DNA of 64,000 nucleotides, taken from an uncultured Bacillales bacterium (GTDB lineage Bacteria; Bacillota_I; Bacilli_A; RFN20; CAG-826). The notes under the pieces are model-generated. The model ran no database searches. It was not told the DNA's origin and saw only the letters and a list, made by a program, of their open reading frames with translations. Positions 38,315 to 55,513 of this stretch are shown here, piece after piece; the first letter of the stretch is position 1; each line of letters opens with the position of its first letter. The DNA lies in assembly GCA_946403545.1 (NCBI GenBank), contig CAMJAG010000001.1, positions 872-64,871 on the forward strand, written 5' to 3'. The translations under genes and the position numbers were made by a program.

Positions 38315-38404
38315 ATTGAAATTATTATACGATATCTGTATTTATTTATAAATAAGTAAGAGGACAAATCATGTCCTCACACTACTTATTGACATATATA
38401 TAAA

Positions 38405-38930
38405 ATGAAAGAGCATTGGAACCCAGTGAAGTCATCTTGCTGATGGCTGGGGCCCAACCAAAAGAGAAGGATATTCGGGATACTGAATATCTAACAAGAC
38501 CTGTTTATCAGGTATTCCGGGATTAAAATACCGCTTTGGTTGGTGGCGCATAATGCTCTTCGATGTAAGTAGACACCCGAGTAGGCACTACAAGAGGCTC
38601 TGTAGCAATACATCCCACGATAAGATGTTAGTCTGAGAAACTAATATCTACGTTCTCAAAGAAAGTGTTTGGCTTGATGGTAAGCAATTACCTATAACTA
38701 CTTTGGTGGGCACTAGTAGGAGAATGCCAGCGAGTTTTGGATCTACGACAAGATAAAAAATATAGCTGAAGCTCTCTGAAAGTTGGAAGATGATGTAACT
38801 CTTCCCATGGTACGGTAGCAATACCCATTCCAGAAGTATTAGGGTCGCTCCCTCTTACTCAGCCTGGCGTGCATGTGTACGAAAAACAAATTAGAGTAAG
38901 TTATGTATGGCGAAGGTCATCAATGTACAA
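38405..38930 (+). ncRNA. Candidate large structured non-coding RNA (class unknown; ROOL/GOLLD-like size range)
   Basis: A ~530-nt intergenic stretch with no ORF in any frame and a GC content clearly above the ~30% background. It has many local hairpins and a long-range pairing (GAGCATT 38411-17 with AATGCTC 38557-63; CCAACCAAA with TTTGGTTGG), and ends in an intrinsic terminator. The strand is inferred from that terminator. Confidence 0.4.
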
Positions 38931-38934
38931 AAAA

Positions 38935-38966
38935 GGTGGATTCTTATGACTCCACCATTTTTATTT
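38935..38966 (+). terminator. Intrinsic terminator (first copy of a 37-nt repeat)
   Basis: GGTGGAttcttatgacTCCACC hairpin followed by ATTTTTATTT. Confidence 0.6.
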
Positions 38967-38998
38967 GTAGTATGAATGACACATGATAAAATGAATTC

Positions 38999-39829
38999 AT
39001 GAATAATGAAACAAATAAAAATGAATTAGAGAATGAGAAAGTTTATATTTTCATTTCGCATTCTCATAAAGATATAGAAAAAGTAAGAAAAATTAGAAAT
39101 TATTTAGAGAGTCTTGATTGTGAACCAATTCTTTTCTTTTTAAAAAGCAAAGATGATGAAGATGAGATAATTCAACTTATCAAAGACGAGATTGATGCTA
39201 GAGTTTGGTTTATTTATTGTAGATCTATAAATGCATCTAAATCTAAATGGGTTAATGATGAAGTAACATATGTTGAGCAAACAGGTAAAAACAACATAGT
39301 TATAGATATCGATGGATGCCTAGATGAAAATGGAGAATTAAAAAATAGCGTTAAAAATAAACTTAATGTCATTATTAACGGATTTAGAAACTTACAACAA
39401 TTGTATATTTCTTATTCACACAAAGACTCTGTTGAAGTTCTTCGTATTGTCCAGTTTTTAAAAAGATATGGTGTTGATTTGTTTTATGATGACATGACAC
39501 ATTTTGGATCAGATTGGAAACATTCTATTCATAATCAAATTGTTAAATCGCCATATTTTCTGGTTTTTTTAAGCAAACAATCCATTAATTCACATTTCAT
39601 TTATGATGAAATAAAGCTAGCACAATACTTTAATAAAGAAATAATTCCCGTAATTCTTTATAACAATATTAACGATTATTATTCAGTCATTGAATCAGAT
39701 GTTTTCCAAAAGAATTTTGCATACTTTTTAGTCTGTGAATTCGATACTTCTAGTGATGTTCAATTCAAAGTGTCCTCATTTAGACTGCTAAACACATTAT
39801 TAGAGCATTTCTTTACGGATTTTGAATAA
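38999..39829 (+). CDS. Tandem TIR-TIR domain protein
   Basis: Two TIR domains: the first carries VYIFISHSHKDIEKV, the second LYISYSHKDSVEV. 276 aa with no other domain. Confidence 0.8.
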   Translation: MNNETNKNELENEKVYIFISHSHKDIEKVRKIRNYLESLDCEPILFFLKSKDDEDEIIQLIKDEIDARVWFIYCRSINASKSKWVNDEVTYVEQTGKNNIVIDIDGCLDENGELKNSVKNKLNVIINGFRNLQQLYISYSHKDSVEVLRIVQFLKRYGVDLFYDDMTHFGSDWKHSIHNQIVKSPYFLVFLSKQSINSHFIYDEIKLAQYFNKEIIPVILYNNINDYYSVIESDVFQKNFAYFLVCEFDTSSDVQFKVSSFRLLNTLLEHFFTDFE

Positions 39830-39836
39830 AAGAAAA

Positions 39837-39868
39837 GGTGGATTCTCATGAGTCCACCATTTTTATTA
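39837..39868. terminator. Bidirectional intrinsic terminator (second copy of the 37-nt repeat)
   Basis: GGTGGATTCTCATGAGTCCACC hairpin followed by ATTTTTATTA; 35 of 37 positions match 38930-38966. Confidence 0.6.
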
Positions 39869-41101
39869 TGTTCGAGTAACTGAGAGGCTAACACTCCAAA
39901 CATAATAGAACATACTTGATGCATTCGCCGTAGGATGGTTTAGATTTAGCATAGCTTCTTCTATAAATAATGCATCTGATTTAGGTACTTTAATTGAGAA
40001 ACTATCCAAATCCGCACCATTGTTACTTTCTAAATGTATCGGGGTTTTATATTGGTTATTGAGTATAAACGACCCATTGATCCAATTACATAACAGCAAT
40101 AATTTTCTACCATAGTTATAGATATTAATCGTATATGTAATGTATTCAGTTGAAGATTCTGCGATCCATTCTTTTAAGTTAAATGGAAGTTTGTACTTCA
40201 ATGATGCATTTGAGGAATAAGTGCTATTTATGGTTGCACTGTTATCTTCAAATGTACTTGTTACACGTAGGCCTGCATAACTCTTATTAAGATTTATATA
40301 TTTATATTCTTCTAATAATGCTTCAGTTCCTAAATAAAGTTTCATTGAAATAGGACTTATTTTTGCAGGTGCAGTTGAGATACAACCTTTTGGTCTAGAA
40401 ACAGTGAATTTAATTCCTTTTAATATCTCTTCTTTATCTAATTTGTACATTCTATTGAAGACTGTGTAGTCATCATTTGAACGGAAGGTTCCACTATCAA
40501 TTAAAGATATTGCAGTATCTAACCTATAATCAACCCAATTAAATGTGTTAATTCCTACTACACCTTCTTCTTTTTCATAGTGGCTGAATTTTATAGTCAA
40601 ATAACCAACTGATTCAGTGTGTTGGAGATAGTATTGATAGTCTTCACTAAGCTTTAATTCATATGATTTTGACTTATTAGAACAAGAGATGTCTACACTA
40701 GGAAAATTGAAGTCTATAATCTGAGCTTCATTAGTGTCCAAATAGTTTGCGTAAATGTTTTCTGGAAGTTCCACATTGTCATAAATTGCTTTGCCAGAGC
40801 GATCCACTAATTTCTTTGAATTTAAGTTTGGCTTTTCGAAACAACCCATAAAGAGTTTGTCCTTCTTCTCTGTAGGTTGATATTCGAAAGTATTTATGTA
40901 TTGTATGGTATTTACTTCACCATCGTTTGCAATAACATTAACTTCCTTCCATGGAATTGGTTGTGGCTTATAATCCTCATCTAAAATCGGACAATTTGTT
41001 TCCCCTTTCATAGAAAAGGAACATGCACTGATAGATAATAACGAGACTGCTGTTATGAGTATTAAGCTAATTTTTCTTTTCATAATTGAGATCCTCCTCA
41101 A
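39866..41101 (-). CDS. Lipoprotein of unknown function
   Basis: Lipobox LLSISACS; 411 aa, beta-rich and Tyr/Asn-rich. Confidence 0.5.
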   Translation of the reverse strand: MRRISIMKRKISLILITAVSLLSISACSFSMKGETNCPILDEDYKPQPIPWKEVNVIANDGEVNTIQYINTFEYQPTEKKDKLFMGCFEKPNLNSKKLVDRSGKAIYDNVELPENIYANYLDTNEAQIIDFNFPSVDISCSNKSKSYELKLSEDYQYYLQHTESVGYLTIKFSHYEKEEGVVGINTFNWVDYRLDTAISLIDSGTFRSNDDYTVFNRMYKLDKEEILKGIKFTVSRPKGCISTAPAKISPISMKLYLGTEALLEEYKYINLNKSYAGLRVTSTFEDNSATINSTYSSNASLKYKLPFNLKEWIAESSTEYITYTINIYNYGRKLLLLCNWINGSFILNNQYKTPIHLESNNGADLDSFSIKVPKSDALFIEEAMLNLNHPTANASSMFYYVWSVSLSVTRT

Positions 41102-41124
41102 TTACAAAATATCACGAAAATAGG

Positions 41125-41433
41125 TTAAATACAATATCTATAGAATAAAAAGAAAGACACCCCGTCAAGGATGTCTATTGCGGATACCTCGAAGATATCA
41201 GCGAAAGTATTGACTGTATCAAGATTCACTGTTCCTTCGTTTTCAATTCTGCGTAAGTTTCTTACTGAATATCCAACGCGGTCTGCTAGCTCTTCTTGAG
41301 TCCAGTTTCTACTTTTTCTTAGGTTCTTGATGGATGTACCAATCAAGCGTGAATCAATTAATGTTCTCATAACTACTACCTCCCAAATTGATCTGCTACC
41401 TATATTGACAGGTTTTCCTGAGTTTTGATTCAC
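41125..41433 (-). CDS. XRE-family (Cro/C1-type HTH) transcriptional regulator
   Basis: HTH_3 region IKNLRKSRNWTQEELADRVGYSVRNLRRIENEG. The true start may be the internal Met at about 41370. Confidence 0.7.
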   Translation of the reverse strand: MNQNSGKPVNIGSRSIWEVVVMRTLIDSRLIGTSIKNLRKSRNWTQEELADRVGYSVRNLRRIENEGTVNLDTVNTFADIFEVSAIDILDGVSFFLFYRYCI

Positions 41434-41486
41434 TAAGTAGTTTATGAGCGTATATACTTTAAATTATCCTACGATTGTTGTCAACA

Positions 41487-41738
41487 CTAATTGTCAGAAA
41501 TTGATTCTGCAAGTTCTAATATTTGTACAAATGTTAAAGATTGAAGGTGTAGATACGCTTGAACAACAGCCAACTTATATTCAGTTCTATCTGTTGACCT
41601 AATAGCAATATCTCTAAACCTTCTAAATTCTACTCTTGTTTCTTGCTCTGTATCACTAAGGCATGTCATTACCATTTTATTAGTTGCTTCTAAAGTAAGT
41701 TGCCTCAAATATTTTTTCTTAGCCTCAACATCAACCAT
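41487..41738 (-). CDS. Small hypothetical protein between the TIR-MTase and XRE genes
   Basis: 83 aa, charged and alpha-helical, 8 nt downstream of the TIR-MTase gene. Confidence 0.35.
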   Translation of the reverse strand: MVDVEAKKKYLRQLTLEATNKMVMTCLSDTEQETRVEFRRFRDIAIRSTDRTEYKLAVVQAYLHLQSLTFVQILELAESISDN

Positions 41739-41746
41739 ATAAATAC

Positions 41747-43099
41747 CTATTTCTTAAATCCTACACAAACAAAGCGGTTAACTGCGTACCAAAAATCATT
41801 TCTAGAGAAACGATATTGGAGTTGCGTTAACAAATCTTCCATTTCATTGAACTCTGCTTTAGTTTGCTCATTTTCGTTTGCGATTAATTGAGCTTTAAAA
41901 TAATTCAATCTATAAGCAAAGCTTACTTTATAAAGACCTAATTTCTCTTCATAAGACATATGAGATGTTTCTGTAACAGTGCAATGCATTTTAACTTTGT
42001 TAAATCCTTCATGGACTAACCAAGAATAAAGTTTTCTACCATTGTTTCTATCAGACATTCCTTCAAGAGAATAAGATTTCTTTAAGACTTTTTCTATAAG
42101 CTCATCATCTCCATAAGAAATCTTACTGCCATCATCACTACCTCTAACAATAATCATTCCGCCTTTATTCATAAGAGCCTTTAAATTCTCTAATGCTTTT
42201 TCAGGATTTGTTAGATGATGGAGGACTAAGAAACAAGAAACAACATCAAAGCCTTTAATGCCCTTTTGCTTCATTATTCCCTGCATTTCCTCCATAAATG
42301 TTGGACTTTCAATATTTAATTGATAGAAAGAGAACTTACTATTTTTATTATTTTTATTTGCTTGTTCAATAGCACTTTCACTAATATCGATTCCCACTAC
42401 TTTAGTGTATTTTGCTTTTCTAAAAGCTTGTCTAGTTACATATCCTTGAGCGCAACCAACATCTAGAACTGTGTAATTGTTTTTGTCTAAATACATGTCT
42501 AAAATGCGTTGGTTTTCATCATCATATCTAGATCCTTGGCTTTTTAATCTTTCTGATTCATTAGTGAAATCAAATTCATAAATAGACCATCTTCCTTTGT
42601 AATCAATGCAATCTTTTGGTCTTGGTCTAGAAACTAAAAACCTATTAAACAATCTCTTTTGATAATCATTTACATCAAAAACATCACCAATTGGTTCACT
42701 ATGACAATCTCTAATTGCGTCAATTTCCTTTGGTAACTTTTTTGGATAATTAACTTTATCTAAGAATAAAACTAGAATATTTAATCCTTCAGTTTTTAAA
42801 GCGGTTTCTATTTCTTGTCTAACCCAGTCATCTTTTTTAAATATTCTCTTAGAAAATGTATCTGGAGTTACAAGAAGAATAAAGTCTTTGGAATTATGGA
42901 TTGCATTAGTTAACTGAGGTGGAAACATACCACCTTGAATTGATACCTTATCAAAGAAACTTAGATAACCATTATCCATCAAATTTCTATATAAAAGATA
43001 CGTTGGATATAATCCATCACTTCTTCTATATGAAATGAAAACATCATATATAAAATCTTTTCTCTTAATTTGAGTGTTTTTATTAATTTCTTCAGGCAT
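41747..43099 (-). CDS. TIR domain fused to a class I SAM-dependent methyltransferase
   Basis: N-terminal TIR (FIYDVFISYRRSDG ... ILLVTPD) and a C-terminal Rossmann MTase (motif I VLDVGCAQGYVT, motif IV-like DVVSCFLVLHHL). Confidence 0.8.
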   Translation of the reverse strand: MPEEINKNTQIKRKDFIYDVFISYRRSDGLYPTYLLYRNLMDNGYLSFFDKVSIQGGMFPPQLTNAIHNSKDFILLVTPDTFSKRIFKKDDWVRQEIETALKTEGLNILVLFLDKVNYPKKLPKEIDAIRDCHSEPIGDVFDVNDYQKRLFNRFLVSRPRPKDCIDYKGRWSIYEFDFTNESERLKSQGSRYDDENQRILDMYLDKNNYTVLDVGCAQGYVTRQAFRKAKYTKVVGIDISESAIEQANKNNKNSKFSFYQLNIESPTFMEEMQGIMKQKGIKGFDVVSCFLVLHHLTNPEKALENLKALMNKGGMIIVRGSDDGSKISYGDDELIEKVLKKSYSLEGMSDRNNGRKLYSWLVHEGFNKVKMHCTVTETSHMSYEEKLGLYKVSFAYRLNYFKAQLIANENEQTKAEFNEMEDLLTQLQYRFSRNDFWYAVNRFVCVGFKK

Positions 43100-43198
43100 A
43101 TTCAGTCCTCTTATTTATTAATTTTATAATAAAATAAAGAAAAATACTTTAATATGATAATATAAGAGTGAAGTATATTTACGTGAGGTATTAAACAT

Positions 43199-45580
43199 AT
43201 GTATCCTGAATTACTTGCTATTTTCATTATTACTGGAGTTGTTGAACTCGTTTTAATAGGTGTATTTTTTTATAACCTAATCAGATATAGATATCTTGGT
43301 AATAAATATTTTTACGTAACTGTAAGTGTATTAGTTCTTTTGATGTATTCAACATTCGTCAATAGATCATCAGATCTTTCTATTTCTATGTTTGGAAACA
43401 TAGTGTTTGACACTATTGCGGCAGCAGTAGGTAAAGTTGATACTGAAAAGATTTCTTGGCTGTTTTTACCGGGCGAATGGAATAAATGGCTAGTAATTTT
43501 CTACTTTATCGCCTCATATACAACATTCGCATTCTTATCCATCACAGTTATTCTTAACTTTGCAAAACTCTTCTTAAATGCATTTATTTTCTATAAAAGA
43601 CGAATTATAAATGGAGCAAATGTGTACTATTTGTTCACAGATTCTAGAAATGAAACAGTAATTCCTTTAGCCACTAAACTATTAGATGAAACAAAAGGTC
43701 GTAAAAACTCAGTTAAAGTTTTCGTTTCTAGAGCATCTTTAAAAACTCAAGAAGGTAATGAATTTAGAGATATGTTAGTGGGCTTAGGCATTCCTGTTCA
43801 AGCTGAAAAATTCTCATACAGGATGGCTAGAAAGATCTTTAATTCTAGATACTTCAAACTACATCTTTTTGATAAGCAACAATCGTTTATTTACTTACTT
43901 TTCTCAAATGACGAAACCACTACAAAAGTGGCAACTGATTTCAAAACAGCGATTCAAAAGAATCGTAAGTTTAAAAAAATTAACGACTTTGTAACTCTTT
44001 TAAAGGAAACAAAAGACAAAGATAAATTAGAGAAATTAAAAGAGAACTTTAATGAGAAAGAATATGATTTATTACAAAAAATCCAAATCTTTGTCACTTA
44101 TCAAGAAACAGATTTAGATATTCTCCATAACTTCTCTGGAGAGACATTGCATATCATGAATACTCTTTCTAAGTACGACATGATTGCTTCTAGATTTGTA
44201 TTTGATAATCCAATCTCTCAATTAGTGGACTTAAACAACATCAAACTTAAAGAAGACAATAAACATTTAAATGTTACACTCCTTGGTTTTGGTGTTATTG
44301 ATAGAGCAATATTTGAAAGAATGACATTCTCTTATCAACTTTATGGAGATAATATTAACAAAGTTAATTACCATGTTTTAGATAGAGATGCTGATTCTTT
44401 AATTAAACCTTATGTAAACGAATATACAGATAGAAATAACAGTGTTTATCTATACTCTATCGACTCCGCTTTCGATGGAGAAGATTTAAGACACTACGAA
44501 ACAATTGATAGATATATCTCATCATTGCAAAACGATCCAAACCGTTTCCAAGATGATGGTTTTGAAATCTTTGTTATTTCAGTCATAAACTCAAATAACG
44601 ATTTAAATATCGCGCTTAACTTAAGAAGAGCTATCTTAAAATACTTCAATGATAGATGTGAACAAGTTGTTATTTACGTCAGAGTTGCAGAAAGACTCAT
44701 TGGAGAACAATTCAGAGGTTCAAATCTTTCATACACATACGAAACTCTCTCTCATATTCACGAAGTAAAAGACTTCAATAAGAAATCTGATGTAGAGAAA
44801 GAAGCATACTTCAACTCATTCAAGGACGAGGAAGAAAGAAAAGCAGCAGAGAAAAGATTAATTAAAGATTTAAAAGCACCTATCATTCTCTTTGGTAATG
44901 ATGCAATTATGTCCACATATCTTGCTAGAGAACATAAATACTTCATGGGATTCGCTGAAAACGCTTGGAAATCCTACCAATTAGAACAAGCTTATAACAA
45001 TTATTCTGAAACTCAACTTGATAGATTATGGTTAAGACAAAATAAACAAGAAGTTAAAAATAACACTGATTATGTTCTTTCACTTAGAACAAAGCTAAAC
45101 TTATTTGGCTACAAACTAAATCTAAATAAACAAGAAAACCAATACTTAATGGTTCCTGGTGATGATGTTTCAATTCTTACTTCAGGTGAAAATGAAGAAA
45201 CATTCCTTGAAAGAACAAAACTTAAAGATGAAACTGGTGATGTTGCAAAAGTTCTTAAGATTGCTGATATGGAACATAACCGCTGGTTACAATCCAATAA
45301 CCAAAGATTTAGATATTTATCTAAAGATTACACAAAGGTCGAGGATCAAGAACTATTTGGAGTGAATAAATACACCAATGAAAAAGAAATCACAAGGAAA
45401 TATAACGACAATACACAACACATTTGTATGGTCACTAATGAGGGATTAAGAGACTTCTACAATTATGTTGGAAAGAAAAATCCTGAATATAAAGATGTCG
45501 CTTTAAAACTTGTGTACACAAACGATATTGTTCAGTTAAGAACGATAATCAAAAATGGAACAGAACAAAAGAATAAATAA
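43199..45580 (+). CDS. Membrane protein with four N-terminal TM helices and a ~650-aa cytoplasmic domain of unknown function
   Basis: 793 aa with a hydrophobic N-terminus and no recognisable motif in the soluble part. It is followed by a terminator. Confidence 0.55.
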   Translation: MYPELLAIFIITGVVELVLIGVFFYNLIRYRYLGNKYFYVTVSVLVLLMYSTFVNRSSDLSISMFGNIVFDTIAAAVGKVDTEKISWLFLPGEWNKWLVIFYFIASYTTFAFLSITVILNFAKLFLNAFIFYKRRIINGANVYYLFTDSRNETVIPLATKLLDETKGRKNSVKVFVSRASLKTQEGNEFRDMLVGLGIPVQAEKFSYRMARKIFNSRYFKLHLFDKQQSFIYLLFSNDETTTKVATDFKTAIQKNRKFKKINDFVTLLKETKDKDKLEKLKENFNEKEYDLLQKIQIFVTYQETDLDILHNFSGETLHIMNTLSKYDMIASRFVFDNPISQLVDLNNIKLKEDNKHLNVTLLGFGVIDRAIFERMTFSYQLYGDNINKVNYHVLDRDADSLIKPYVNEYTDRNNSVYLYSIDSAFDGEDLRHYETIDRYISSLQNDPNRFQDDGFEIFVISVINSNNDLNIALNLRRAILKYFNDRCEQVVIYVRVAERLIGEQFRGSNLSYTYETLSHIHEVKDFNKKSDVEKEAYFNSFKDEEERKAAEKRLIKDLKAPIILFGNDAIMSTYLAREHKYFMGFAENAWKSYQLEQAYNNYSETQLDRLWLRQNKQEVKNNTDYVLSLRTKLNLFGYKLNLNKQENQYLMVPGDDVSILTSGENEETFLERTKLKDETGDVAKVLKIADMEHNRWLQSNNQRFRYLSKDYTKVEDQELFGVNKYTNEKEITRKYNDNTQHICMVTNEGLRDFYNYVGKKNPEYKDVALKLVYTNDIVQLRTIIKNGTEQKNK

Positions 45581-49135: not shown

Positions 49136-49648
49136 ATGGATAACAGAATTATTACTTTAAATGGTGAAATCAACGAAGGAAGCGCGATGAAAGTTATTCT
49201 TTCATTACTTCAAATGGATGCTGAAAATAGAAAACAACCAATATATCTATATATCAACTCTCCTGGTGGAAATATTGTTCATGGATTAGCAATATATGAT
49301 GTTATGAATAACATATCCGCTCCGGTATATACAGTATGTAATGGCATGGCAGCATCGATGGGTAGTTTCTTACTCTCTTGTGGTGCTAAAGGACATAGAT
49401 ATTGTTTAAAACACTCTCGTATTCTTATCCATCAACCACTTGTCTATAACAACTATGGAAGAATGATTGAAGAAAGCGAAGCTCAACAAATCGCCGCTAA
49501 TTTAAGAAAAGATAGAGATAAATTAGAACAAATCATGGCAGACAATTCTGGTAAAGACATTAAAGTCTTCCATAAGGATTGTGAAAGAGACCATTGGATG
49601 AGCGCTCAAGAAGCTCTAGACTATGGTCTAATAGATAAGATTATCTAA
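49136..49648 (+). CDS. clpP: ClpP-family serine peptidase with an intact Ser-His-Asp triad but missing the N-terminal axial loops
   Basis: GMAASMGS (Ser), ILIHQP (His) and CERDHWMSAQEALDYGLIDKI (Asp) are present. It is 170 aa, against ~195-200 for canonical ClpP. Confidence 0.8.
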   Translation: MDNRIITLNGEINEGSAMKVILSLLQMDAENRKQPIYLYINSPGGNIVHGLAIYDVMNNISAPVYTVCNGMAASMGSFLLSCGAKGHRYCLKHSRILIHQPLVYNNYGRMIEESEAQQIAANLRKDRDKLEQIMADNSGKDIKVFHKDCERDHWMSAQEALDYGLIDKII

Positions 49649-49655: not shown

Positions 49656-49680
49656 GGAAGTCCTAGACTTCCTTTTATTT
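49656..49680. terminator. Bidirectional terminator between the two convergent operons
   Basis: GGAAGTCctaGACTTCC stem followed by TTTTATTT; the IMPase stop codon lies within the T-run. Confidence 0.55.
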
Positions 49681-50433
49681 CACTCTATTAAGTATTAACT
49701 CAAGTGTTTCTTGGTTATTTGCAACCACTAATGAATCGCTACCAAATTCGTATTCTTTTTTATTGATGGTTTTATAAACCATTCCAGCTTCTTTTATCAA
49801 TAAAAGACCTGGTGCTATATCCCATATGTAATTGTAGTAGCAGATATATGCTTGTGCTTTTGATGTGGCTAATGTAGTAAAGTCTACACAAGCCGCTCCT
49901 AAAAGTCTCGTTTTAAGGAAATTCCCTTGTAAATCCTTCATTAATTCAAATTGTTTATCAAATGAAATGGTTTTGTTATCTTTATAAAAATCACTAGATA
50001 ATAAAACTCCATCTTCATGTTTAATATCTTTATTTACTTTAATAGGTTTTCCATTAAGGAAAGCTCCACCATCTTTCTTAGCAAGATATAACTCATCCTT
50101 ATATGGCAAATAGATTATTGATAACACTACTTCTTTCCTTTGGAAAACCGCTAGTTGAATACCACAAAGTTCTATGCCCATTGAATAGTTACAAGTGCCA
50201 TCAAGTGGATCGATAACAAAGGTTAGTTCATCTGTTAGTGGTTCGTTTTTACTTTCTTCTGCGATTATTTTTGCTTGAGGGAATTCTTTTTTAATAGCGT
50301 TAACAAAATAATCATTAAGTTCTAAATCCGCTTCTGAGAGTAAGTCATTAATAGATTTATGTTTAATTGATTTATGTTGCTTAAAGAATATGTCTTTTGA
50401 AGATAAAACTAGTTGTTTTAAATACTCTTCCAT
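49675..50433 (-). CDS. Inositol monophosphatase / CysQ-family phosphatase
   Basis: EES metal site, DPLDGT and WDIAPG motifs; 252 aa. It sits 4 nt downstream of the TIR-NACHT gene. Confidence 0.8.
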   Translation of the reverse strand: MEEYLKQLVLSSKDIFFKQHKSIKHKSINDLLSEADLELNDYFVNAIKKEFPQAKIIAEESKNEPLTDELTFVIDPLDGTCNYSMGIELCGIQLAVFQRKEVVLSIIYLPYKDELYLAKKDGGAFLNGKPIKVNKDIKHEDGVLLSSDFYKDNKTISFDKQFELMKDLQGNFLKTRLLGAACVDFTTLATSKAQAYICYYNYIWDIAPGLLLIKEAGMVYKTINKKEYEFGSDSLVVANNQETLELILNRVK

Positions 50434-50437
50434 GCGA

Positions 50438-53284
50438 TTATCCCTTCAAATCTCTAATAAATTTCTCAACATGTTTAATCCATGTTAATACTGATTCATT
50501 TTGTAAGTATTCGTATTTTCTTGTTACTTTTTGTGCTTCGCAAATCAAATTATATAAAGCTTGTGCTTCAGTTAATTCGATTGGAATATTTAGTTTTTCC
50601 GCAATTTCAATTGCTTCAGAACAAGGAGCTTCCGCTTTTGCAAGTAAGGAAGTATCTCCATTATAGTTTACTAAATAGTAAAGAGAAGTTAAGAAATAGA
50701 TTTGACCTTGGTCATATAAATCTTTATTCTCTTTAGCACATTTCATTGCTTCTTCTTTTAATTCCATGATCCTTGCTTCATTGCCACGATTAACAATTTC
50801 ATAGAACATAGATGTATATAAGAATCTTGTGTAATATCTATCATGTTGGTTATATAAGACATAGATTGCTTCCGCTTTATTAAGTTTATCTTTAGCTTTA
50901 GCTAAATCCATATGCCATATACATGCATCAGCGTATACACGATAGTCTTCCGCTAAGAAGAGGTGATCTCCAATTTGAGTGCCATCTTCCATTTCTTCTT
51001 TAACTCTTTTATCAAGAAGCGCGACAGCATTATCTGCTGCTTTATAGCAGTTTTCTAAATCAAGCCTTCTACAATAAACTTTTGATAAAGTTAAGTTAAT
51101 CAAAGATTCTTCGTATAAATCGCCTGCTTCTTTAGCGTCTTTGATCGCACCATCACTCATTCCTATGAGTTCGTCGAATAGCACCATCTTGCGATAAACA
51201 AGCATTGCCATTCTTTCAAATTCACTACGAATTTCTATGTCTAATTCGCCTAAATCATGTTCTTTGATGAATTCTTTAATGTCATTAAATGCTTCAGTAA
51301 ATGATAAGGAAATATAGTGGAATTGAATAACTCCCATATCATAGTTCACATCATCACTTGGATCTCTATTCTTTAAGAACTTACCAAATCCTGCTTCTTT
51401 AAGTTTGATAAATAAGCCAGCGTTATAGATTGCTTGTCTATATTTGATAAAGATTTTTGTAAAACATTCAGACTGATAGATTTCAAACGCTTCATAATCA
51501 TCATCCTTATAGATGTAATTGATGTTATCAATGTATTCAAATAATCCTTCATAAAGAGTGTAAAGTTTTGATTTAATACACACTCTTAAAAAGTCAAAAT
51601 TCTTTAATAGTTTACAAAGTTTTTCTGTCTTTTTAAGTGCTTTTAAGGCTTTTTGATAGTCTAAGATGACATAAGGATTGTTCTTCCATTCACCTAATTC
51701 AATTTGCTTTTCAATATATTCAAGCAAGATCTTATAACCATCTCTTCTAGAGACACAATATTTTGCAGGACATTCGTTAGATTCACTTAACCAGTCTAAA
51801 ATTGATTTATGTCTACTCTTAAGAGTGCCATCTTCAATAATTACAAAGTAATTAGATACTATATCGATATTCTTTCTAATTTCAGATTCTGATAGACCTG
51901 TTGCATCCGCTAAAAACTCCACTGTTGGAGGAACGCTTGTAGCGAGTAATAAAGATATAATCTTTCTAATATCTTCATAATCATCTGGTGCTTTAGGGAA
52001 AATTCTATCAAACCAGATTAAGTAGTATGAATAAATTCCGTCAGGGAATTCTCTAACGTTATCTAAAGAGTATTCACCACTCTTAATTAGACTAACAATA
52101 CTCTTAGCATATAAGAATGATCCATGTGTTTTTCCAAGCAAAATCCTCAGTGTTTCTGCATCGAATTTATAATTTGAGAGTGCTTGGTCATAATACTTTT
52201 TAATATCCGCAACGTTTTCTTCATTGTTTTCTAACATGCTGAAAACGTGACAACTTGAGAAGTAACTAACAACATTCTTTTGAGGTCTAGTTGAACATAA
52301 AATCTTTAACCAAGAAGGTAAAGTGTTTTGATAAGTCACTATCATCTCAGCAATTTCATTTTTATTATCCAAAACTGCTTCATCTAATGCATCGATAACA
52401 ATTATTTGAGGGTTCTTAAAAGTAACTTTGTTACCTACTTCAATAAAGAACAACTCAAATAATCTTTTAGCGTCTAAATTATCTATATTTGCTTCTCTAG
52501 TTAAAATCTTTTTAATTTCGAGATTATAATCTTCGTTACGACCAGCGATTTGTGCTGCTAAGTTTTTAATAATACTTCTAGCGTCAGTCTTAGTTCTATT
52601 ACCAAAGCTACAGAAATGGATACCTGCAACATTGTTATGGAAATTAATAGTTAACATAGCGCACATTGCAGTCTTTCCAATACCTGGAGCAGCTTGTAAT
52701 AAATAGATTGGTAAACTATCTGGTTTATTAATCCATTTTTCTACATCCGCGAAGAAAGAATCTCTACCAACAAAGTTGAGTGTATGATGAGTAATTTCAA
52801 AAGCGTCAATAGCTTGGACTTCTTTAGAAATATCAAAACCAGTATCGAAGTAGCCTACTTCTTCTTCGTTTCTAACGATCTTTAGTAATCTTTGATAGCA
52901 ACTTTCGTATACATCTTCAATGATTGAATTATCCGCTGCGACAGCGTTTTTAATCATGATTCTTTGTAAACGAACAATTGAAAGAGGAACATAAGAGTCA
53001 TCTAACATGATAGGAACAATTGTTTTCTTATATTCCACTGCTCTAGCGAGTTCATTTAAACAATATCCGTCTAGAGAAACAGACTTTTTAGATACAAAGA
53101 AAACAAAATGACTACATCTTTGAATCGCGTTATCAATTTTAGTTTCCCAATCACCTTGATATAGATAGTCCTTATCAAGGAAGACTTCATAAACTTCTTC
53201 TTTGCGTAAATCAGTAACAACTTTATTGACTACGTTTTCTAAAGTTTGATGTCCATAGGATATGAAAATAACTTGTTTATCCAT
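50438..53284 (-). CDS. TIR-NACHT-TPR protein (bacterial STAND/NLR-like NTPase with a TIR effector domain)
   Basis: N-terminal TIR (VIFISYGHQ...FVFFVSKKS), a NACHT Walker A LLQAAPGIGKTAMCA and Walker B IIVIDALDEAV, and C-terminal TPR-like helical repeats; 948 aa. Confidence 0.85.
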   Translation of the reverse strand: MDKQVIFISYGHQTLENVVNKVVTDLRKEEVYEVFLDKDYLYQGDWETKIDNAIQRCSHFVFFVSKKSVSLDGYCLNELARAVEYKKTIVPIMLDDSYVPLSIVRLQRIMIKNAVAADNSIIEDVYESCYQRLLKIVRNEEEVGYFDTGFDISKEVQAIDAFEITHHTLNFVGRDSFFADVEKWINKPDSLPIYLLQAAPGIGKTAMCAMLTINFHNNVAGIHFCSFGNRTKTDARSIIKNLAAQIAGRNEDYNLEIKKILTREANIDNLDAKRLFELFFIEVGNKVTFKNPQIIVIDALDEAVLDNKNEIAEMIVTYQNTLPSWLKILCSTRPQKNVVSYFSSCHVFSMLENNEENVADIKKYYDQALSNYKFDAETLRILLGKTHGSFLYAKSIVSLIKSGEYSLDNVREFPDGIYSYYLIWFDRIFPKAPDDYEDIRKIISLLLATSVPPTVEFLADATGLSESEIRKNIDIVSNYFVIIEDGTLKSRHKSILDWLSESNECPAKYCVSRRDGYKILLEYIEKQIELGEWKNNPYVILDYQKALKALKKTEKLCKLLKNFDFLRVCIKSKLYTLYEGLFEYIDNINYIYKDDDYEAFEIYQSECFTKIFIKYRQAIYNAGLFIKLKEAGFGKFLKNRDPSDDVNYDMGVIQFHYISLSFTEAFNDIKEFIKEHDLGELDIEIRSEFERMAMLVYRKMVLFDELIGMSDGAIKDAKEAGDLYEESLINLTLSKVYCRRLDLENCYKAADNAVALLDKRVKEEMEDGTQIGDHLFLAEDYRVYADACIWHMDLAKAKDKLNKAEAIYVLYNQHDRYYTRFLYTSMFYEIVNRGNEARIMELKEEAMKCAKENKDLYDQGQIYFLTSLYYLVNYNGDTSLLAKAEAPCSEAIEIAEKLNIPIELTEAQALYNLICEAQKVTRKYEYLQNESVLTWIKHVEKFIRDLKG

Positions 53285-53966
53285 GTACTTTTTCCTCTAA
53301 AGCAATGTTATAACCCGCTTTCTTGCCTTCATTTAATGTTTCTTCATTTGCTAAATGCATAAGAGTAATTTTCTTTCTCTCTTCCATATTGAAGGCGTTA
53401 TTTAATACTGAAATATGAGTATGTATCATCGCATTAAGAGAAGTTGTAACTTCATGATACATTTCATCTATTTTTCCTGATTTAAGTTCTCTAACTGCTC
53501 TATCAAGTAGTTCAGATGTATCTCCTGAATAGTAGAAATTAATTTCTTTAGAATATACAAAATATGCATAACTACCAGGAATATGTGGAACTTCAACAGG
53601 TTCCACTTTTAAATCTTTGATTAAAGAGTAGTCATTATATATTTCAAAATCAAAATCTAAACCAGTTAATTGGAGTAGTTTTTTAAGATTATCTTTTAAA
53701 GGATAGAAGACTTTTACCGTCTTTTTTGAGAAGAAATGAATCCAATATAAGAATGGTTCAAGGCTTCCAATATGATCACTATGAAGATGGGTAATTAAAA
53801 CAACAATTTCATCAACATCATCTAAAAGATGAAGTGCTAAAATCTTGTCACAAATTTTCTCGCCCATATCAAAAATATACAATTTGCCATTTTGTTTAAA
53901 ATAAGCACAATTGTTATTTGTGAAATAGTTAAAAGCGGCTCCTACACCTAAAAATTTTAAATACAT
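53277..53966 (-). CDS. Metallo-beta-lactamase-fold hydrolase
   Basis: HxHxDH motif (ITHLHSDHIGS); 229 aa. It overlaps the TIR-NACHT start by 8 nt. Confidence 0.7.
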   Translation of the reverse strand: MYLKFLGVGAAFNYFTNNNCAYFKQNGKLYIFDMGEKICDKILALHLLDDVDEIVVLITHLHSDHIGSLEPFLYWIHFFSKKTVKVFYPLKDNLKKLLQLTGLDFDFEIYNDYSLIKDLKVEPVEVPHIPGSYAYFVYSKEINFYYSGDTSELLDRAVRELKSGKIDEMYHEVTTSLNAMIHTHISVLNNAFNMEERKKITLMHLANEETLNEGKKAGYNIALEEKVHG

Positions 53967-53968
53967 AA

Positions 53969-54226: not shown

Positions 54227-54228
54227 AA

Positions 54229-54666
54229 TTATTCGTCTTCTAGTATTTTTTGAAATAAGCTGTATTCATCTCTAGTTATTGTATCATCACTAGCAGTTAG
54301 AGCGATACCATATAAAACAACAGCAGTTTTAGTATCTTCATCAAATTCTTCTTTGATATTATTTACCATTGCTTTAACAAAAGCTTCTTTATCTCCAAAT
54401 TGAGTAGCATGGAAGAATTCTCTATAAGAAACATCTAATCCTGTTGCTTCTTTAAAGAATCCATATTCCTTAACAGCGCAATCTTTATCAGCAGAAACGT
54501 ACATTCTAGTTAAGTTAATAACAATATTAGCGATTCTATCTTTGTGATAATCTTGTTTTCTAAGATTACGATAAAGTCTTTCTAAAGCTTGTCTACCTAA
54601 CTTTGCTCTTTCAGCATCTTCTAAATTAACAACTTCATGCATGACTCGTTCTACTTCTTTATTCAT
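54229..54666 (-). CDS. TerB-like domain protein (paralog A)
   Basis: 145 aa, helical, with VSADKDCAVKEYGFF and a C-terminal ASDDTITRDEYSLFQKIL, similar to the tellurite-resistance TerB fold. It is paralogous to 54903..55349. Confidence 0.5.
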   Translation of the reverse strand: MNKEVERVMHEVVNLEDAERAKLGRQALERLYRNLRKQDYHKDRIANIVINLTRMYVSADKDCAVKEYGFFKEATGLDVSYREFFHATQFGDKEAFVKAMVNNIKEEFDEDTKTAVVLYGIALTASDDTITRDEYSLFQKILEDE

Positions 54667-54681
54667 AATATGTTCTTCCTA

Positions 54682-54903
54682 TTATTTTTTACTTTTTAGA
54701 TTACAAGCATTTGGGAAATTAATTTCCCACGCTGCTGCTCTTGCTATTTGAAGTAATTTATATTTCTTATCTTCATCAGTTATCTCTTTGATAACTTCTT
54801 TAGTATTTGGATTTAACAAAAATATTTTGGATTCTTTAACTCCAAATACTGAATCTCTTACTTCGTATAAGTGTCTTCCGTTACGAAATTGAAATGGTTT
54901 CAT
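54682..54903 (-). CDS. Small hypothetical protein
   Basis: 73 aa; overlaps the upstream gene by 1 nt. Confidence 0.35.
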   Translation of the reverse strand: MKPFQFRNGRHLYEVRDSVFGVKESKIFLLNPNTKEVIKEITDEDKKYKLLQIARAAAWEINFPNACNLKSKK

Positions 54904-55349
54904 TATGCAAGCAATTTGTCGATTAAATCTTGTTCTGCAACTGTTAATGTGTGGTCACTTGCTAAGAAAGTAACTGCAAATAAGACCATACTTGTTCTTG
55001 TTTTGTTATCTGCTTTTTTCATTAAGTTAGCAAATTCATTAACATAATCATCATCTAAGCCACCATTGGTCATGTCATAGAATGTATCTGTATCCATATC
55101 AATACCAGTGACTGCTCTAAAGAAAGAATATTCTGCTCCACTACATTTGCCATCAGCAGAAACTAAAATTCTAACTAAGTGAATAATTAAGTTAGTAATT
55201 TCATCCTTATTACAACCGAGTTCTTTTAAACCTCCGATAAAGTCGTTTAAAGCATGTGCAGCAATATTAACTTTTTCTTGTGGTTCTTCGTTTAAAATGT
55301 TTTGGCACATTTTTCTTAATTCAGCATCCATATGAAATCCTCCCATCAT
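54903..55349 (-). CDS. TerB-like domain protein (paralog B)
   Basis: VSADGKCSGAEYSFF and a C-terminal ASDHTLTVAEQDLIDKLL. The likely start is an internal Met near 55334. Confidence 0.5.
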   Translation of the reverse strand: MMGGFHMDAELRKMCQNILNEEPQEKVNIAAHALNDFIGGLKELGCNKDEITNLIIHLVRILVSADGKCSGAEYSFFRAVTGIDMDTDTFYDMTNGGLDDDYVNEFANLMKKADNKTRTSMVLFAVTFLASDHTLTVAEQDLIDKLLA

Positions 55350-55436
55350 TAATGAAAGACTTCAAACATATAGTTTTTGTCCATTCAATTACATATAAAT
55401 ATCTGTCTAAATTTATTTTATCATTTTTAAAGAACA

Positions 55437-55465
55437 AAAAGAACACGTTTTTAACGTGCTCTTGT
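55437..55465 (-). terminator. Terminator downstream of cysK
   Basis: AGAGCACGTTaaaAACGTGTTCT-type hairpin (one mismatch), then a T-run on the minus strand. Confidence 0.4.
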
Positions 55466-55513
55466 GGTGGGTTTATAGTCTCTAAATAGCCAGGGGGACT
55501 ACTTATTGCTTAA

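What the first reader, a model, noticed from the sequence alone, without database searches (positions are those of the whole stretch)
38315..55513. About 17-kb island with four independent TIR-domain genes and no integrase, between an S41 peptidase gene and cysK
TIR-TIR (38999), TIR-MTase (41747..43099), TIR-NACHT-TPR (50438..53284), the ncRNA candidate, the ATPase-ClpP module, and RyR and TerB genes all cluster here. The flanks (peptidase, cysK, Rrf2) look like core genes. No integrase, transposase or tRNA lies at the island edge; the tRNA-Ala is ~6.5 kb away at 31715. This density of TIR architectures in one locus suggests a defence hot-spot worth mining as a unit.
Basis: partly seen in the sequence, partly recalled or inferred. 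Interest (0 to 1): 0.7.

Follow-up and report, generated by a model that had tools for sequence, protein, structure and literature searches.

The report
Composite TIR-rich defence-type island, two new cassettes
This 17-kb stretch of an uncultured rumen bacterium is a patchwork of separately acquired immune-type gene cassettes, including two conserved multigene cassettes that I could not find described: a TIR-NACHT sensor with two nucleotide-processing enzymes, and a conjugation-type ATPase teamed with a ClpP protease pair, a channel-like membrane protein and a RyR-domain protein.

Summary
There are three TIR genes carrying four TIR domains, not four genes. The ncRNA candidate is a full-length ROOL RNA. 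The "ATPase" is a soluble VirD4/TraG-like coupling-protein homologue. The TPR and TerB calls are weak.

The region is not one unit. It holds:
- ROOL RNA.
- An orphan tandem-TIR (ThsB-like) gene bracketed by a duplicated 35-nt terminator.
- A TIR-SAM-methyltransferase/HTH/lipoprotein operon.
- Cassette A: a membrane protein with tandem RCK domains, a TPR/Sel1 adaptor, a VirD4-like ATPase, an inactive ClpR-like subunit plus an active ClpP, a RyR-domain protein and a TerB-like protein.
- Cassette B: TerB-like, MBL hydrolase, TIR-NACHT and an IMPase-family phosphatase.

A and B each recur by themselves at other chromosomal sites in other Bacillota genomes. Here B is nested inside A. None of the island genes lies within 10 kb of cysK in 13 related species. 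Same-species contigs that cover the region from the HTH gene (41125) to cysK keep it, and no contig covers the ROOL, tandem-TIR or lipoprotein part. There is no integrase, no flanking repeat and no compositional deviation.

B is a new operonic variant of bacterial TIR-NLR defence. A matches no PADLOC model and I found no description of it in the literature searched. Its defence role and mechanism are inferred, not shown.

The parts
38398..38938 (+). ROOL RNA (large ornate ncRNA), full length, followed by its own terminator hairpin
   Evidence: Rfam RF03087, 187.6 bits, model positions 1-574/574; the hairpin at 38935-38958 is read from the sequence and falls within repeat D4
38931..39867 (+). 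Two copies of a 35-nt terminator hairpin (38931-38965 and 39833-39867, 94% identical) that bracket the tandem-TIR gene
   Evidence: the repeat finder family D4; the second copy (39837-39858) is listed by the terminator scan
38999..39829 (+). Tandem-TIR protein (276 aa), ThsB-like, with no ThsA-type partner nearby
   Evidence: Pfam TIR_2 and ThsB_TIR; PADLOC ThsB models up to 52 bits; a candidate catalytic Glu in both domains, read from the sequence
39866..41101 (-). Lipoprotein of unknown function, last gene of the TIR-methyltransferase operon
   Evidence: Signal peptide and lipobox LLSISAC; no match in Pfam, PADLOC or NCBIfam
41125..41433 (-). XRE-type HTH regulator
   Evidence: Pfam HTH_3 at 4.8e-11
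41487..41738 (-). 83-aa protein of unknown function
   Evidence: No family match; 99% identical in same-species contig L006
41747..43099 (-). TIR domain fused to a class-I SAM methyltransferase of the small-molecule/RNA type
   Evidence: Pfam TIR_2 at 1.2e-9 and Methyltransf_31 at 2.3e-22; the best NCBIfam matches are UbiG, BioC, CmoB and Hen1, all far below their cut-offs; sequence motifs DWVRQEI and VLDVGCAQG
43199..45580 (+). Cassette A: membrane protein with 4-5 N-terminal helices, tandem RCK/KTN domains and a C-terminal helical domain with an invariant EHNRW motif
45695..46618 (+). Cassette A: all-helical TPR/Sel1-like partner that always accompanies the ATPase
46622..48586 (+). Cassette A: soluble VirD4/TraG-like (FtsK-HerA superfamily) ATPase with an acidic C-terminal tail
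   Evidence: Pfam T4SS-DNA_transf, TraG-D_C and TrwB_AAD_bind; NCBIfam conju_CD1115 at 240 bits; Walker A GTTGSGKT, Walker B HFLLDEF and no N-terminal TM segment; tail comparison
48588..49133 (+). Cassette A: ClpR-like, catalytically inactive ClpP paralogue
   Evidence: Pfam CLP_protease at 1.4e-39. His is replaced by Arg and Asp by Asn in the window copy. The Ser is retained here but is not conserved in the orthologues.
49136..49648 (+). Cassette A: ClpP with an intact Ser-His-Asp triad and no N-terminal axial-loop segment
   Evidence: Pfam CLP_protease at 1.8e-58; alignment with E. coli ClpP
49675..50433 (-). Cassette B: inositol-monophosphatase-family phosphatase
   Evidence: Pfam Inositol_P at 5e-48; motifs DPLDGT and WDIAPG; follows TIR-NACHT in L107, L108 and L110
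50438..53284 (-). Cassette B: TIR-NACHT STAND protein with a C-terminal region that looks helical from the sequence
   Evidence: Pfam TIR_2 and NPHP3_N; Walker motifs; orthologues 64% identical in L107 and 31% in L110, in the same three-gene order
53277..53966 (-). Cassette B: metallo-beta-lactamase-fold hydrolase, Apyc1- and RNase Z-like
   Evidence: Pfam Anti-Pycsar_Apyc1 at 46 bits (below its cut-off of 50) and Lactamase_B_2; HLHSDH motif; lies upstream of TIR-NACHT in L107, L108 and L110
53969..54226 (-). Cassette A: stand-alone RyR-domain protein (85 aa)
   Evidence: Pfam RyR at 3.3e-26; sits next to the ClpP pair in L094, L096 and L105; H23, W26 and D65 invariant
54229..54666 (-). TerB-like protein, assigned to cassette A by its position next to RyR
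   Evidence: Weak Pfam TerB match; homologues lie next to RyR in L094 and L105 and near the cassette in L096
54682..54903 (-). 73-aa protein of unknown function
   Evidence: ORF listing; 97-99% identical in same-species contigs; no family match
54903..55349 (-). Second TerB-like paralogue, orthologous to the one that heads cassette B in L107 and L108
   Evidence: 33% identical to 54229-54666; 52% identical to L107:5717-6145, which lies directly upstream of MBL/TIR-NACHT/IMPase

Best explanation
The interval is a mosaic accessory island in an uncultured rumen Bacillota (Bacilli/Erysipelotrichaceae-like) genome. It was built by piecemeal insertion of self-contained cassettes, not by one mobile element. 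It contains five modules:
1. A ROOL RNA gene.
2. An orphan tandem-TIR (ThsB-like) gene, apparently inserted behind ROOL with duplication of its terminator.
3. An operon of TIR-SAM-methyltransferase, an 83-aa protein, an XRE-type HTH and a lipoprotein.
4. Cassette A.
5. Cassette B, nested inside A and co-transcribed with A's RyR and TerB-like genes.

CASSETTE B. It most likely works as an NLR-type abortive-infection sensor. The C-terminal region would bind a phage protein, the NACHT module would oligomerise, and the clustered TIR domains would cleave NAD+ by depletion and/or make an ADPR-type product. The MBL phosphodiesterase and the IMPase-type phosphatase are always linked to it. They would process or clear the nucleotide products or substrates.

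CASSETTE A. It most likely is an ATP-driven, membrane-associated proteolytic immune or stress module. A hexameric VirD4-like ring with its TPR/Sel1 adaptor would recognise a target and engage a ClpP/ClpR chamber. The RyR-domain protein (a fold that binds ADPR-type ligands) and the membrane protein with tandem RCK domains would supply nucleotide-dependent control or a membrane effector arm.

SHOWN: domain content, catalytic motifs, conserved gene linkage, occurrence of the cassettes at different loci, and absence from relatives at this site.
INFERRED: the defence function, all ligands, any ATPase-ClpP coupling, and any cross-talk between modules.
For: - Domains and motifs.
- Cassette A recurs with the same seven gene families but a different gene order in L094 (ATPase 64% identical) and L096 (48%). 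L105 (61%) has six of them and lacks the RCK protein. The minimal adaptor+ATPase pair occurs in L098, L103 and L106.
- Cassette B recurs as TerB-like/MBL/TIR-NACHT/IMPase in L107 and L108, and as MBL/TIR-NACHT/IMPase in a Clostridiales contig, L110. In each case it sits among housekeeping genes without cassette A.
- Relatives lack the island genes next to cysK.
- Defence-type neighbours of A in L094: a DpnII restriction-modification system, HicB and phage Bro-N/ANT genes.
- The RCK-domain fold and the TPR/Sel1 fold.
- RyR-domain proteins bind or cleave 2'cADPR and 3'cADPR (PMC13232231). The equivalents of their His, Trp and Asp residues are invariant here.
- One cassette A component shows a whole-gene allelic replacement within the species: 77.6% identity, while its neighbours are 98-100% identical.
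- A duplicated terminator brackets the tandem-TIR gene.
- Terminators separate the island from cysK and separate the modules from each other.
Against: - No experiment exists for any gene here.
- PADLOC has no model for the cassette A proteins beyond a weak mad8 hit, and none for the MBL or IMPase.
- Cassette A, and especially the minimal pair, often sits among housekeeping genes. That also fits a non-immune cellular role.
- No ClpP-docking motif was identified in the ATPase.
- There is no compositional sign of foreign origin.
- There is no mobility gene and no island-flanking repeat.
- Same-species contigs that cover 41125 to cysK all keep it.
- Only a handful of neighbourhoods could be read: six independent ones for A and three for B.
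Confidence: 0.55

Rival explanations
1. The island is one integrated TIR-signalling network. The three TIR proteins would make ADPR-derived signals. RyR, MBL and IMPase would shape or quench those signals. The RCK membrane protein and the VirD4-like/ClpP machine would be the shared effectors.
For: - Four TIR domains lie within 15 kb of a RyR-domain protein, a fold shown to bind or cleave cADPR isomers (PMC13232231).
- RyR and the TerB-like genes form a run of same-strand genes with gaps of at most 15 nt, ending in MBL/TIR-NACHT/IMPase.
- The TIR-methyltransferase gene and the RCK gene diverge from a shared 99-bp region.
Against: - Cassette A occurs with no TIR gene within 10 kb in L094, L096 and L105.
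- Cassette B occurs without RyR, the RCK protein or ClpP in L107 and L110.
- The tandem-TIR gene and the TIR-methyltransferase were not found linked to either cassette elsewhere.
- The modules are therefore autonomous, and the co-location could be ordinary defence-island clustering.
Confidence: 0.15
2. Cassette A is not an immune system. It is either a decayed remnant of a conjugative element or a cellular regulated-proteolysis or ion-homeostasis module that happens to lie beside TIR genes.
For: - The closest named family for the ATPase is a conjugal VirD4-like protein (NCBIfam conju_CD1115, 240 bits).
- The adaptor+ATPase pair sits next to ribosomal-protein, DNA-repair and sporulation genes in L098, L105 and L106.
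- Neither PADLOC nor PHROGs has families for the RCK, TPR/Sel1 or TerB-like proteins.
- RCK proteins normally gate K+ transport.
Against: - No relaxase, VirB4 or other T4SS gene lies in any of the loci read.
- The ATPase lacks the membrane anchor of true coupling proteins.
- The family is small and patchy: 97 clusters for the adaptor and 17 for the RCK protein.
- The cassette moves between unrelated sites.
- It neighbours restriction-modification, HicB and phage genes in L094 and TIR genes here.
- One component shows strain-level allelic replacement.
- The RCK protein has no K+ selectivity-filter motif (sequence).
Confidence: 0.25
3. The region is ordinary ancestral chromosome of this lineage, not an island. 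The apparent absence from relatives would only reflect the generally scrambled synteny of these poorly sampled MAG lineages.
For: - No deviation in GC content or codon usage.
- No integrase, no tRNA at the edges and no flanking repeats.
- The gene order from 41125 to cysK is identical in every same-species contig that covers it, at 91-100% identity.
- The relatives have also lost the M13 and S41 flanks.
Against: - Cassettes A and B are found at different loci in related genomes. B lies between the oxaloacetate decarboxylase and biotin-ligase genes in L107, with TIR-NACHT 64% identical.
- The distance between cysK and conserved genes is about 6-8 kb in L014 and L018 but about 30 kb here.
Confidence: 0.1

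Closest known systems
Bacterial NACHT / TIR-NLR defence proteins (bNACHT, Kibby et al., 10.1101/2022.07.19.500537; 'TIR-NLR' of Rousset et al., PMC9122126)
   Same: It has the same tripartite layout of N-terminal TIR effector, NACHT NTPase and a C-terminal region that presumably senses the target. The expected mode of action is also the same: oligomerisation-activated NAD+ cleavage.
   Different: The gene here sits in a conserved operon with an MBL hydrolase upstream and an IMPase-family phosphatase downstream, plus a TerB-like gene in two lineages. The bNACHT paper says such genes are only rarely in operons, and then poorly conserved ones. No PADLOC NLR model matched beyond the TIR domain.
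Thoeris (ThsB TIR + ThsA effector)
   Same: The tandem-TIR protein matches ThsB-type TIR models.
   Different: No ThsA-type (SIR2/SLOG, Macro or TM) effector gene lies adjacent. The gene has two TIR domains, stands alone between two copies of a terminator, and sits next to a ROOL RNA.
ClpP1/ClpP2 and ClpP/ClpR heteromeric Clp proteases with AAA+ partners (ClpX, ClpA, ClpC)
   Same: A tandem pair of ClpP-fold subunits, one catalytic and one lacking the triad, encoded next to a ring ATPase.
   Different: The neighbouring ATPase is a RecA-fold VirD4/TrwB-type protein of the FtsK-HerA superfamily, not an AAA+ unfoldase. Both subunits lack the N-terminal axial loops that contact ClpX and ClpA. No IGF/LGF-type loop was recognised.
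Type IV coupling proteins (VirD4/TraG/TrwB) and ring-translocase defence modules such as HerA-linked systems
   Same: A P-loop with the all-alpha insertion domain and an acidic C-terminal tail ending in Phe, as in TraD (the TraD comparison is from my own knowledge). The concept of a hexameric translocase paired with a degradative enzyme is also shared.
   Different: It has no membrane anchor and no T4SS or relaxase genes nearby. Its obligate partner is a TPR/Sel1 protein. It is linked to ClpP/ClpR, RyR, TerB-like and RCK proteins.
RyDEP, phage RyR-domain proteins that cleave or sequester 2'/3'cADPR (PMC13232231)
   Same: It belongs to the same Pfam family (PF02026, 3e-26). The His-x-x-Trp and Asp positions that bind or cleave the ligand are conserved.
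   Different: It is encoded by the host within a conserved cassette, not by a phage. The phosphate-binding His (H100 in RyDEP) appears to be Thr in all four orthologues. That reading comes from counting residues, not from an alignment to RyDEP. Its activity is untested.
MADS (methylation-associated defence system, 10.1101/2023.03.30.534895)
   Same: Weak PADLOC hits to mad1 (HTH), mad2 (methyltransferase core) and mad8 (P-loop).
   Different: The mandatory mad6 and mad7 are absent. The hits are generic domain matches of 19-58 bits, and the genes lie in different operons.
ROOL RNA (RF03087; Kretsch et al., PMC12286853)
   Same: A full-length match with all the conserved elements.
   Different: ROOL is reported mainly from phages and prophages near tRNA islands. 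Here no phage gene is evident among the domain-scanned genes on either side, from about 30.6 to 60.2 kb, and the nearest gene is a tandem-TIR gene. About 28 candidate ROOL loci from IMG/VR, screened by sequence motifs only and not confirmed with the Rfam model, showed no TIR neighbour in a low-sensitivity test.

Membership tests
Bacterial NLR-like (NACHT-clade STAND) defence protein | NACHT-type P-loop NTPase with Walker A and Walker B (hhhhDxxDE) | tested here: met
   Pfam NPHP3_N at 78.9 bits; GIGKT and IIVIDALDE in the sequence
Bacterial NLR-like (NACHT-clade STAND) defence protein | N-terminal effector domain and C-terminal repeat/sensor region | tested here: inconclusive
   The TIR effector is confirmed (TIR_2 at 1.9e-15). 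The C-terminal ~430 aa have no Pfam repeat hit at E <= 0.01, and their helical character is judged from the sequence only.
Bacterial NLR-like (NACHT-clade STAND) defence protein | Confers phage resistance | not testable with these tools
   Needs a phage challenge experiment
Thoeris | ThsB-type TIR protein | tested here: met
   Pfam ThsB_TIR at 4e-10; PADLOC ThsB at 1e-14
Thoeris | Adjacent ThsA-type effector that senses the TIR product | tested here: not met
   The neighbours are the ROOL RNA and a convergent lipoprotein gene. No SIR2, SLOG or Macro domain was found anywhere in the interval.
MADS | mad6, mad7 and mad8 all present (mandatory in the authors' model) | tested here: not met
   Only a weak mad8 hit (38.5 bits) plus generic mad1 and mad2 hits; no mad6 or mad7 hit
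Type IV coupling protein of a conjugative system | VirD4/TraG P-loop with all-alpha domain | tested here: met
   T4SS-DNA_transf at 130 bits, TrwB_AAD_bind at 72 bits, TraG-D_C at 97 bits
Type IV coupling protein of a conjugative system | N-terminal membrane anchor and neighbouring relaxase/T4SS genes | tested here: not met
   The N-terminus is hydrophilic. No T4SS or relaxase domain was found in the window interval or in the loci called with Pfam annotation: L094, L096, L098, L105, L106.
ClpP protease (catalytic) | Ser-His-Asp triad | tested here: met
   Met for 49136-49648. Not met for 48588-49133, where His is Arg, Asp is Asn and the Ser is not conserved in the orthologues.
ClpP protease (catalytic) | Docking to an AAA+ partner through IGF/LGF loops and N-terminal axial loops | tested here: inconclusive
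   The N-terminal loop segment is absent from both subunits. No conserved [ILV]G[FL] loop specific to the ClpP-linked ATPases was seen. A complex cannot be modelled with these tools.
RyR-domain (PF02026) cADPR-binding/cleaving proteins | RyR domain with His/Trp/Asp ligand and catalytic residues | tested here: met
   Pfam RyR at 91.8 bits. H23, W26 and D65 are invariant in four orthologues. The H100 equivalent appears to be Thr. The correspondence to RyDEP numbering is by spacing, not by a direct alignment to RyDEP.
RyR-domain (PF02026) cADPR-binding/cleaving proteins | Binds or hydrolyses 2'/3'cADPR | not testable with these tools
   Needs a biochemical assay
RCK/KTN-gated channel or transporter | Tandem RCK domains attached to a membrane domain | tested here: met
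RCK/KTN-gated channel or transporter | K+ selectivity filter (TVGYG-like) or a Trk/Ktr-type pore partner | tested here: not met
   No such motif in residues 1-140, and no Trk/Ktr membrane subunit nearby
ROOL RNA | Reaches the Rfam gathering score over the full model | tested here: met
   187.6 bits against 99.1, positions 1-574/574
Genomic island / defence hot-spot | Present in some close relatives and absent or different in others at the same site; mobility genes or compositional bias | tested here: inconclusive
   Absent next to cysK in 13 related species, but their synteny is also lost. Fixed within the species over the part covered by contigs. No integrase, no tRNA edge, no flanking repeat and no compositional bias.

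The most novel reading that the evidence does not exclude
Cassette A would be a previously unrecognised kind of machine. A soluble type-IV-coupling-protein-like (FtsK/HerA-superfamily) ring ATPase with a TPR/Sel1 adaptor would drive or gate a ClpP/ClpR proteolytic chamber. That would make it the first non-AAA+ partner of ClpP. Control would come from ADPR-type nucleotides through a host RyR-domain protein and a membrane protein with tandem RCK domains, and the whole would act as an anti-phage or anti-plasmid system. In this genome it would be physically and transcriptionally interleaved with a TIR-NACHT/MBL/IMPase system that could supply such nucleotides.
Probability: 0.25. Interest if true: 0.85.

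Novelty: new variant of a known kind. Interest (0 to 1): 0.6.

Why it matters
Clusters of defence genes are a well-known phenomenon, so the island as such is not new. Taking it apart gives two concrete, testable leads.

1. A conserved three- or four-gene TIR-NACHT operon. Its MBL and IMPase partners imply nucleotide chemistry beyond simple NAD+ depletion in bacterial NLR-type immunity.

2. A conserved cassette of five to seven genes that links a conjugation-type ring ATPase to a ClpP/ClpR pair, a RyR-domain protein and an RCK membrane protein. RyR domains were only recently shown to bind or cleave cADPR immune signals in phages. A host-encoded RyR protein embedded in a conserved cassette, here co-transcribed with a TIR-NACHT gene, suggests that hosts also use this fold to sense or buffer such signals.

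The region also places a ROOL RNA, whose function is unknown, in a chromosomal immune-gene setting rather than a prophage.

Tried and rejected
- MADS membership. It was suggested by PADLOC hits to mad1, mad2 and mad8. I rejected it because mad6 and mad7 are absent and the hits are generic.
- S41 peptidase as a synteny anchor. No relative was found in 185,579 species genomes and no exact copy is on record.
- cysK as a synteny anchor. It returned 80 loci, but only Rrf2-cysK is syntenic, so the island edges could not be mapped by an empty site.
- Flanking direct or inverted repeats for the whole island. None was convincing.
- GC content, GC skew and codon usage. No deviation.
- Phage or plasmid origin of cassette A. 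The adaptor has no match in IMG/VR, INPHARED or PLSDB, and PHROGs has no family for the RCK, adaptor or TerB-like proteins.
- TIR-NACHT against PLSDB. No match.
- The metagenome scan with the adaptor profile gave only 5 loci.
- A RyR-like C-terminal domain in the RCK protein, suggested by the EHNRW motif. It is not supported: hhalign probability 0.15 and no Pfam hit in any of 15 members.
- Foldseek against the PDB for the RCK protein model was uninformative.
- A general ROOL-TIR association. Of 120 pattern hits in IMG/VR, about 28 were plausible ROOLs by motif screening (not confirmed with the Rfam model). None had a TIR ORF by a home-made HMM. The test has low sensitivity, but it gives no support.
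- ROOL near cassette A in other loci. None.
- S41 peptidase as a paralogue of the other 560-aa ORF in the window. They are unrelated.
- Literature searches for the RyR/TerB/ClpP/VirD4 combination and for NACHT/TIR/IMPase/MBL. No paper was found.

Full report
OBSERVATION

- 38999-39829 carries two TIR domains.
- 41747-43099 is TIR plus a class-I SAM methyltransferase.
- 50438-53284 is TIR plus a NACHT-type NTPase (NPHP3_N 6e-22; GIGKT and IIVIDALDE motifs).
- 48588-49133 and 49136-49648 are ClpP-fold proteins.
- 53969-54226 is a RyR-domain protein (3e-26).
- The flanks are an S41 peptidase and cysK/Rrf2.

The only tRNA in the window is tRNA-Ala at 31715-31790. No integrase or transposase domain was found in the interval.

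Corrections:
- There are three TIR genes with four TIR domains, not four genes.
- Pfam detects no TPR in the NACHT protein.
- 'TerB' is a sub-threshold call, although 5 of 6 family members repeat it. There are two TerB-like paralogues.
- The 'ATPase' is a VirD4/TraG-type coupling-protein homologue with no membrane anchor.
- 39866-41101 is a lipoprotein.
- The ncRNA candidate is a full-length ROOL RNA (RF03087, 187.6 bits).

ORGANISM AND ISLAND STATUS

The cysK protein is 81-86% identical to those of uncultured rumen 'Bacilli/Erysipelotrichaceae/Acholeplasmatales' MAGs. Exact or near-exact copies of the island genes occur in rumen and gut metagenome contigs.

Within that species, the stretch from the HTH gene (41125) to cysK keeps identical gene order at 91-100% amino-acid identity. 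The one exception is the RCK membrane protein. It is only 77.6% identical in contig L007, while its neighbours there are 98-100% identical. No same-species contig covers the ROOL, tandem-TIR or lipoprotein part.

In 13 related species only Rrf2-cysK is retained (Rrf2 in 10 of the 13), and no island gene lies within 10 kb of cysK. Two of them place homologues of window genes at 23.8-26.2 kb only 6-8 kb from cysK, against about 30 kb here. Local synteny is generally poor, however, so the edges cannot be fixed by an empty site.

GC content and codon usage are unremarkable, and no flanking repeats were found. 'Hot-spot' in the strict sense remains unshown.

ANATOMY: FIVE MODULES

1. ROOL RNA with its own terminator.

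2. The tandem-TIR gene. Two 94%-identical copies of that 35-nt terminator bracket it (38931-38965 and 39833-39867). This looks like a cassette inserted behind ROOL. The gene is ThsB-like but has no ThsA-type partner.

3. A minus-strand operon: TIR-methyltransferase, an 83-aa protein, an XRE-type HTH and a lipoprotein. The methyltransferase resembles small-molecule or RNA methyltransferases, not DNA methyltransferases.

4. Cassette A.

5. Cassette B.

The scanned terminator-like hairpins follow cysK, the RCK gene, the tandem-TIR gene and the IMPase gene.

CASSETTE A

Neighbourhoods of homologues of the VirD4-like ATPase show conserved gene linkage.
- L094 (ATPase 64% identical): RCK-type 816-aa protein, 314-aa adaptor, ATPase, two ClpP genes, and convergent RyR and TerB-like genes.
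- L105 (61%): adaptor, ATPase, two ClpP genes, RyR and TerB-like. It lies beside a tRNA and housekeeping genes.
- L096 (48%): TerB-like, adaptor, ATPase, two ClpP genes and RyR, followed by the RCK-type protein, a 215-aa protein and a trypsin-like protease.
- L098/L099, L103 and L106 (43-45%): the adaptor+ATPase pair only, among housekeeping genes.

The order varies but the set is kept, which argues for a functional link.

Component properties:
- The adaptor family is small, 97 clusters at 50% identity among 1.84 billion representatives. It is an all-helical TPR/Sel1 solenoid.
- One ClpP paralogue keeps Ser-His-Asp. The other lacks the triad across its orthologues, as ClpR does. Both lack the N-terminal axial-loop segment.
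- The ClpP-linked ATPases carry long acidic C-terminal tails.
- The RyR protein keeps the His-x-x-Trp and Asp residues. A 2026 preprint shows these bind and cleave 2'/3'cADPR in phage RyR-domain proteins (PMC13232231).

No PADLOC model covers these proteins beyond a weak mad8 hit. No phage or plasmid copy of the adaptor was found. The literature searches found nothing on this combination.

CASSETTE B

Neighbourhoods of MBL homologues show MBL, TIR-NACHT and IMPase as a fixed trio with closely spaced or overlapping ORFs.
- In a related species (L107/L108; MBL 79%, TIR-NACHT 64%, IMPase 73%) a TerB-like gene heads the trio. That gene is 52% identical to window 54903-55349.
- In a Clostridiales contig (L110; 46%, 31% and 44%) the trio occurs without a TerB-like gene.
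- In both cases the cassette sits among housekeeping genes and lacks cassette A.

The catalytic motifs are intact: a candidate TIR catalytic Glu, HLHSDH in the MBL, and DPLDGT/WDIAPG in the IMPase. TIR-NACHT is a known bacterial NLR architecture. The published survey notes that such genes are only rarely in operons, and then poorly conserved ones, and it mentions neither an MBL nor an IMPase partner. A systematic TIR-system preprint does not mention them either.

NESTING

In the window the minus-strand run reads: TerB-like(148) > 73 aa > TerB-like(145) > RyR > MBL > TIR-NACHT > IMPase. It ends back-to-back with ClpP.

Cassette B's body therefore sits between ClpP and RyR of cassette A, and B's TerB-like gene lies outside A's TerB-like/RyR pair. 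Assigning each TerB-like paralogue to a cassette rests on position and on the 52% match to L107. The cassette A TerB-like proteins of L094 and L105 are about equally distant from both paralogues.

The interleaving may be an accident of recombination between TerB-like paralogues. It may instead reflect coupling through ADPR-type ligands. The evidence favours autonomy, because each cassette occurs alone elsewhere.

MECHANISM (INFERRED)

Cassette B:
- A STAND sensor is activated by a phage protein.
- NACHT-driven oligomerisation brings the TIR domains together.
- The clustered TIR domains cleave NAD+ and/or make a signalling product.
- The MBL phosphodiesterase and the IMPase phosphatase process or clear nucleotide products or substrates.
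- An alternative role for the MBL is a latent effector, as described for protease-linked MBL modules (PMC12642450).

Cassette A:
- A hexameric VirD4-like ring with a TPR/Sel1 adaptor recognises a target.
- The ring engages a ClpP/ClpR chamber.
- The RyR and RCK proteins provide nucleotide-dependent control and possibly a membrane effector.

None of these steps has been demonstrated.

VERDICT

The island itself is an ordinary kind of thing, a cluster of immune-type cassettes. Cassette B is a new operonic variant of a known defence family. Cassette A is an apparently undescribed conserved system whose most novel reading, a coupling-protein-like ATPase working with ClpP under nucleotide control, remains open.

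Noticed in passing
window 38398-38938: A full-length ROOL RNA lies with no phage gene evident among the domain-scanned genes on either side (about 30.6-60.2 kb). It sits between an S41 lipoprotein peptidase gene and a tandem-TIR gene. ROOL is usually reported from phages and prophages near tRNA islands, and its function is unknown.
   Followed up: partly
window 38931-38965 and 39833-39867: A 35-nt terminator hairpin is duplicated (94% identity) on both sides of the tandem-TIR gene, as if the gene had been inserted as a cassette behind ROOL.
   Followed up: partly
L007:880-3261 versus window 43199-45580: In one same-species contig the RCK membrane protein is only 77.6% identical, with the differences spread over its whole length. 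The flanking genes there are 98-100% identical. This points to whole-gene allelic replacement or diversifying selection on that one component.
   Followed up: partly
L098/L099 9063-11836; L103 9992-12735; L106 9083-11821: The TPR/Sel1 adaptor and VirD4-like ATPase occur as a bare pair, without ClpP, RyR, TerB-like or RCK genes, embedded among ribosomal, DNA-repair and sporulation genes. The role of this minimal pair is unknown.
   Followed up: no
L096 13260-17647: In this locus the RyR gene ends an operon that encodes a 499-aa trypsin-like protease, a 215-aa protein and the RCK-type protein. This may be an alternative embedded effector, occupying the position that cassette B occupies in the window.
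   Followed up: no
L105 14014-14087: A tRNA gene lies directly beside the TerB-like end of cassette A. This hints at tRNA-proximal insertion, although no integrase is present.
   Followed up: no
L110 3452-7412: Cassette B in the Clostridiales contig lies about 2.6 kb from a Pnkp/Hen1 RNA-repair pair, with two GDSL lipase genes in between.
   Followed up: no
window 31866-33682: The left flank, between the tRNA-Ala and the island, carries a GGDEF protein and a small MazG-like nucleotide pyrophosphohydrolase. These may also be accessory or nucleotide-signalling genes.
   Followed up: no
window 46622-48586 (residues ~600-654): The ClpP-linked VirD4-like ATPases have long Asp/Glu-rich C-terminal tails with Phe near the end. 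The tails are shorter in the orthologues that lack ClpP.
   Followed up: partly
window 36632-38314 and 39866-41101: Both the S41 peptidase and the 411-aa unknown protein have lipoprotein signal sequences. The 'core' left flank is therefore itself a surface protein gene, and it has no detectable relative in the species-representative genome set.
   Followed up: partly
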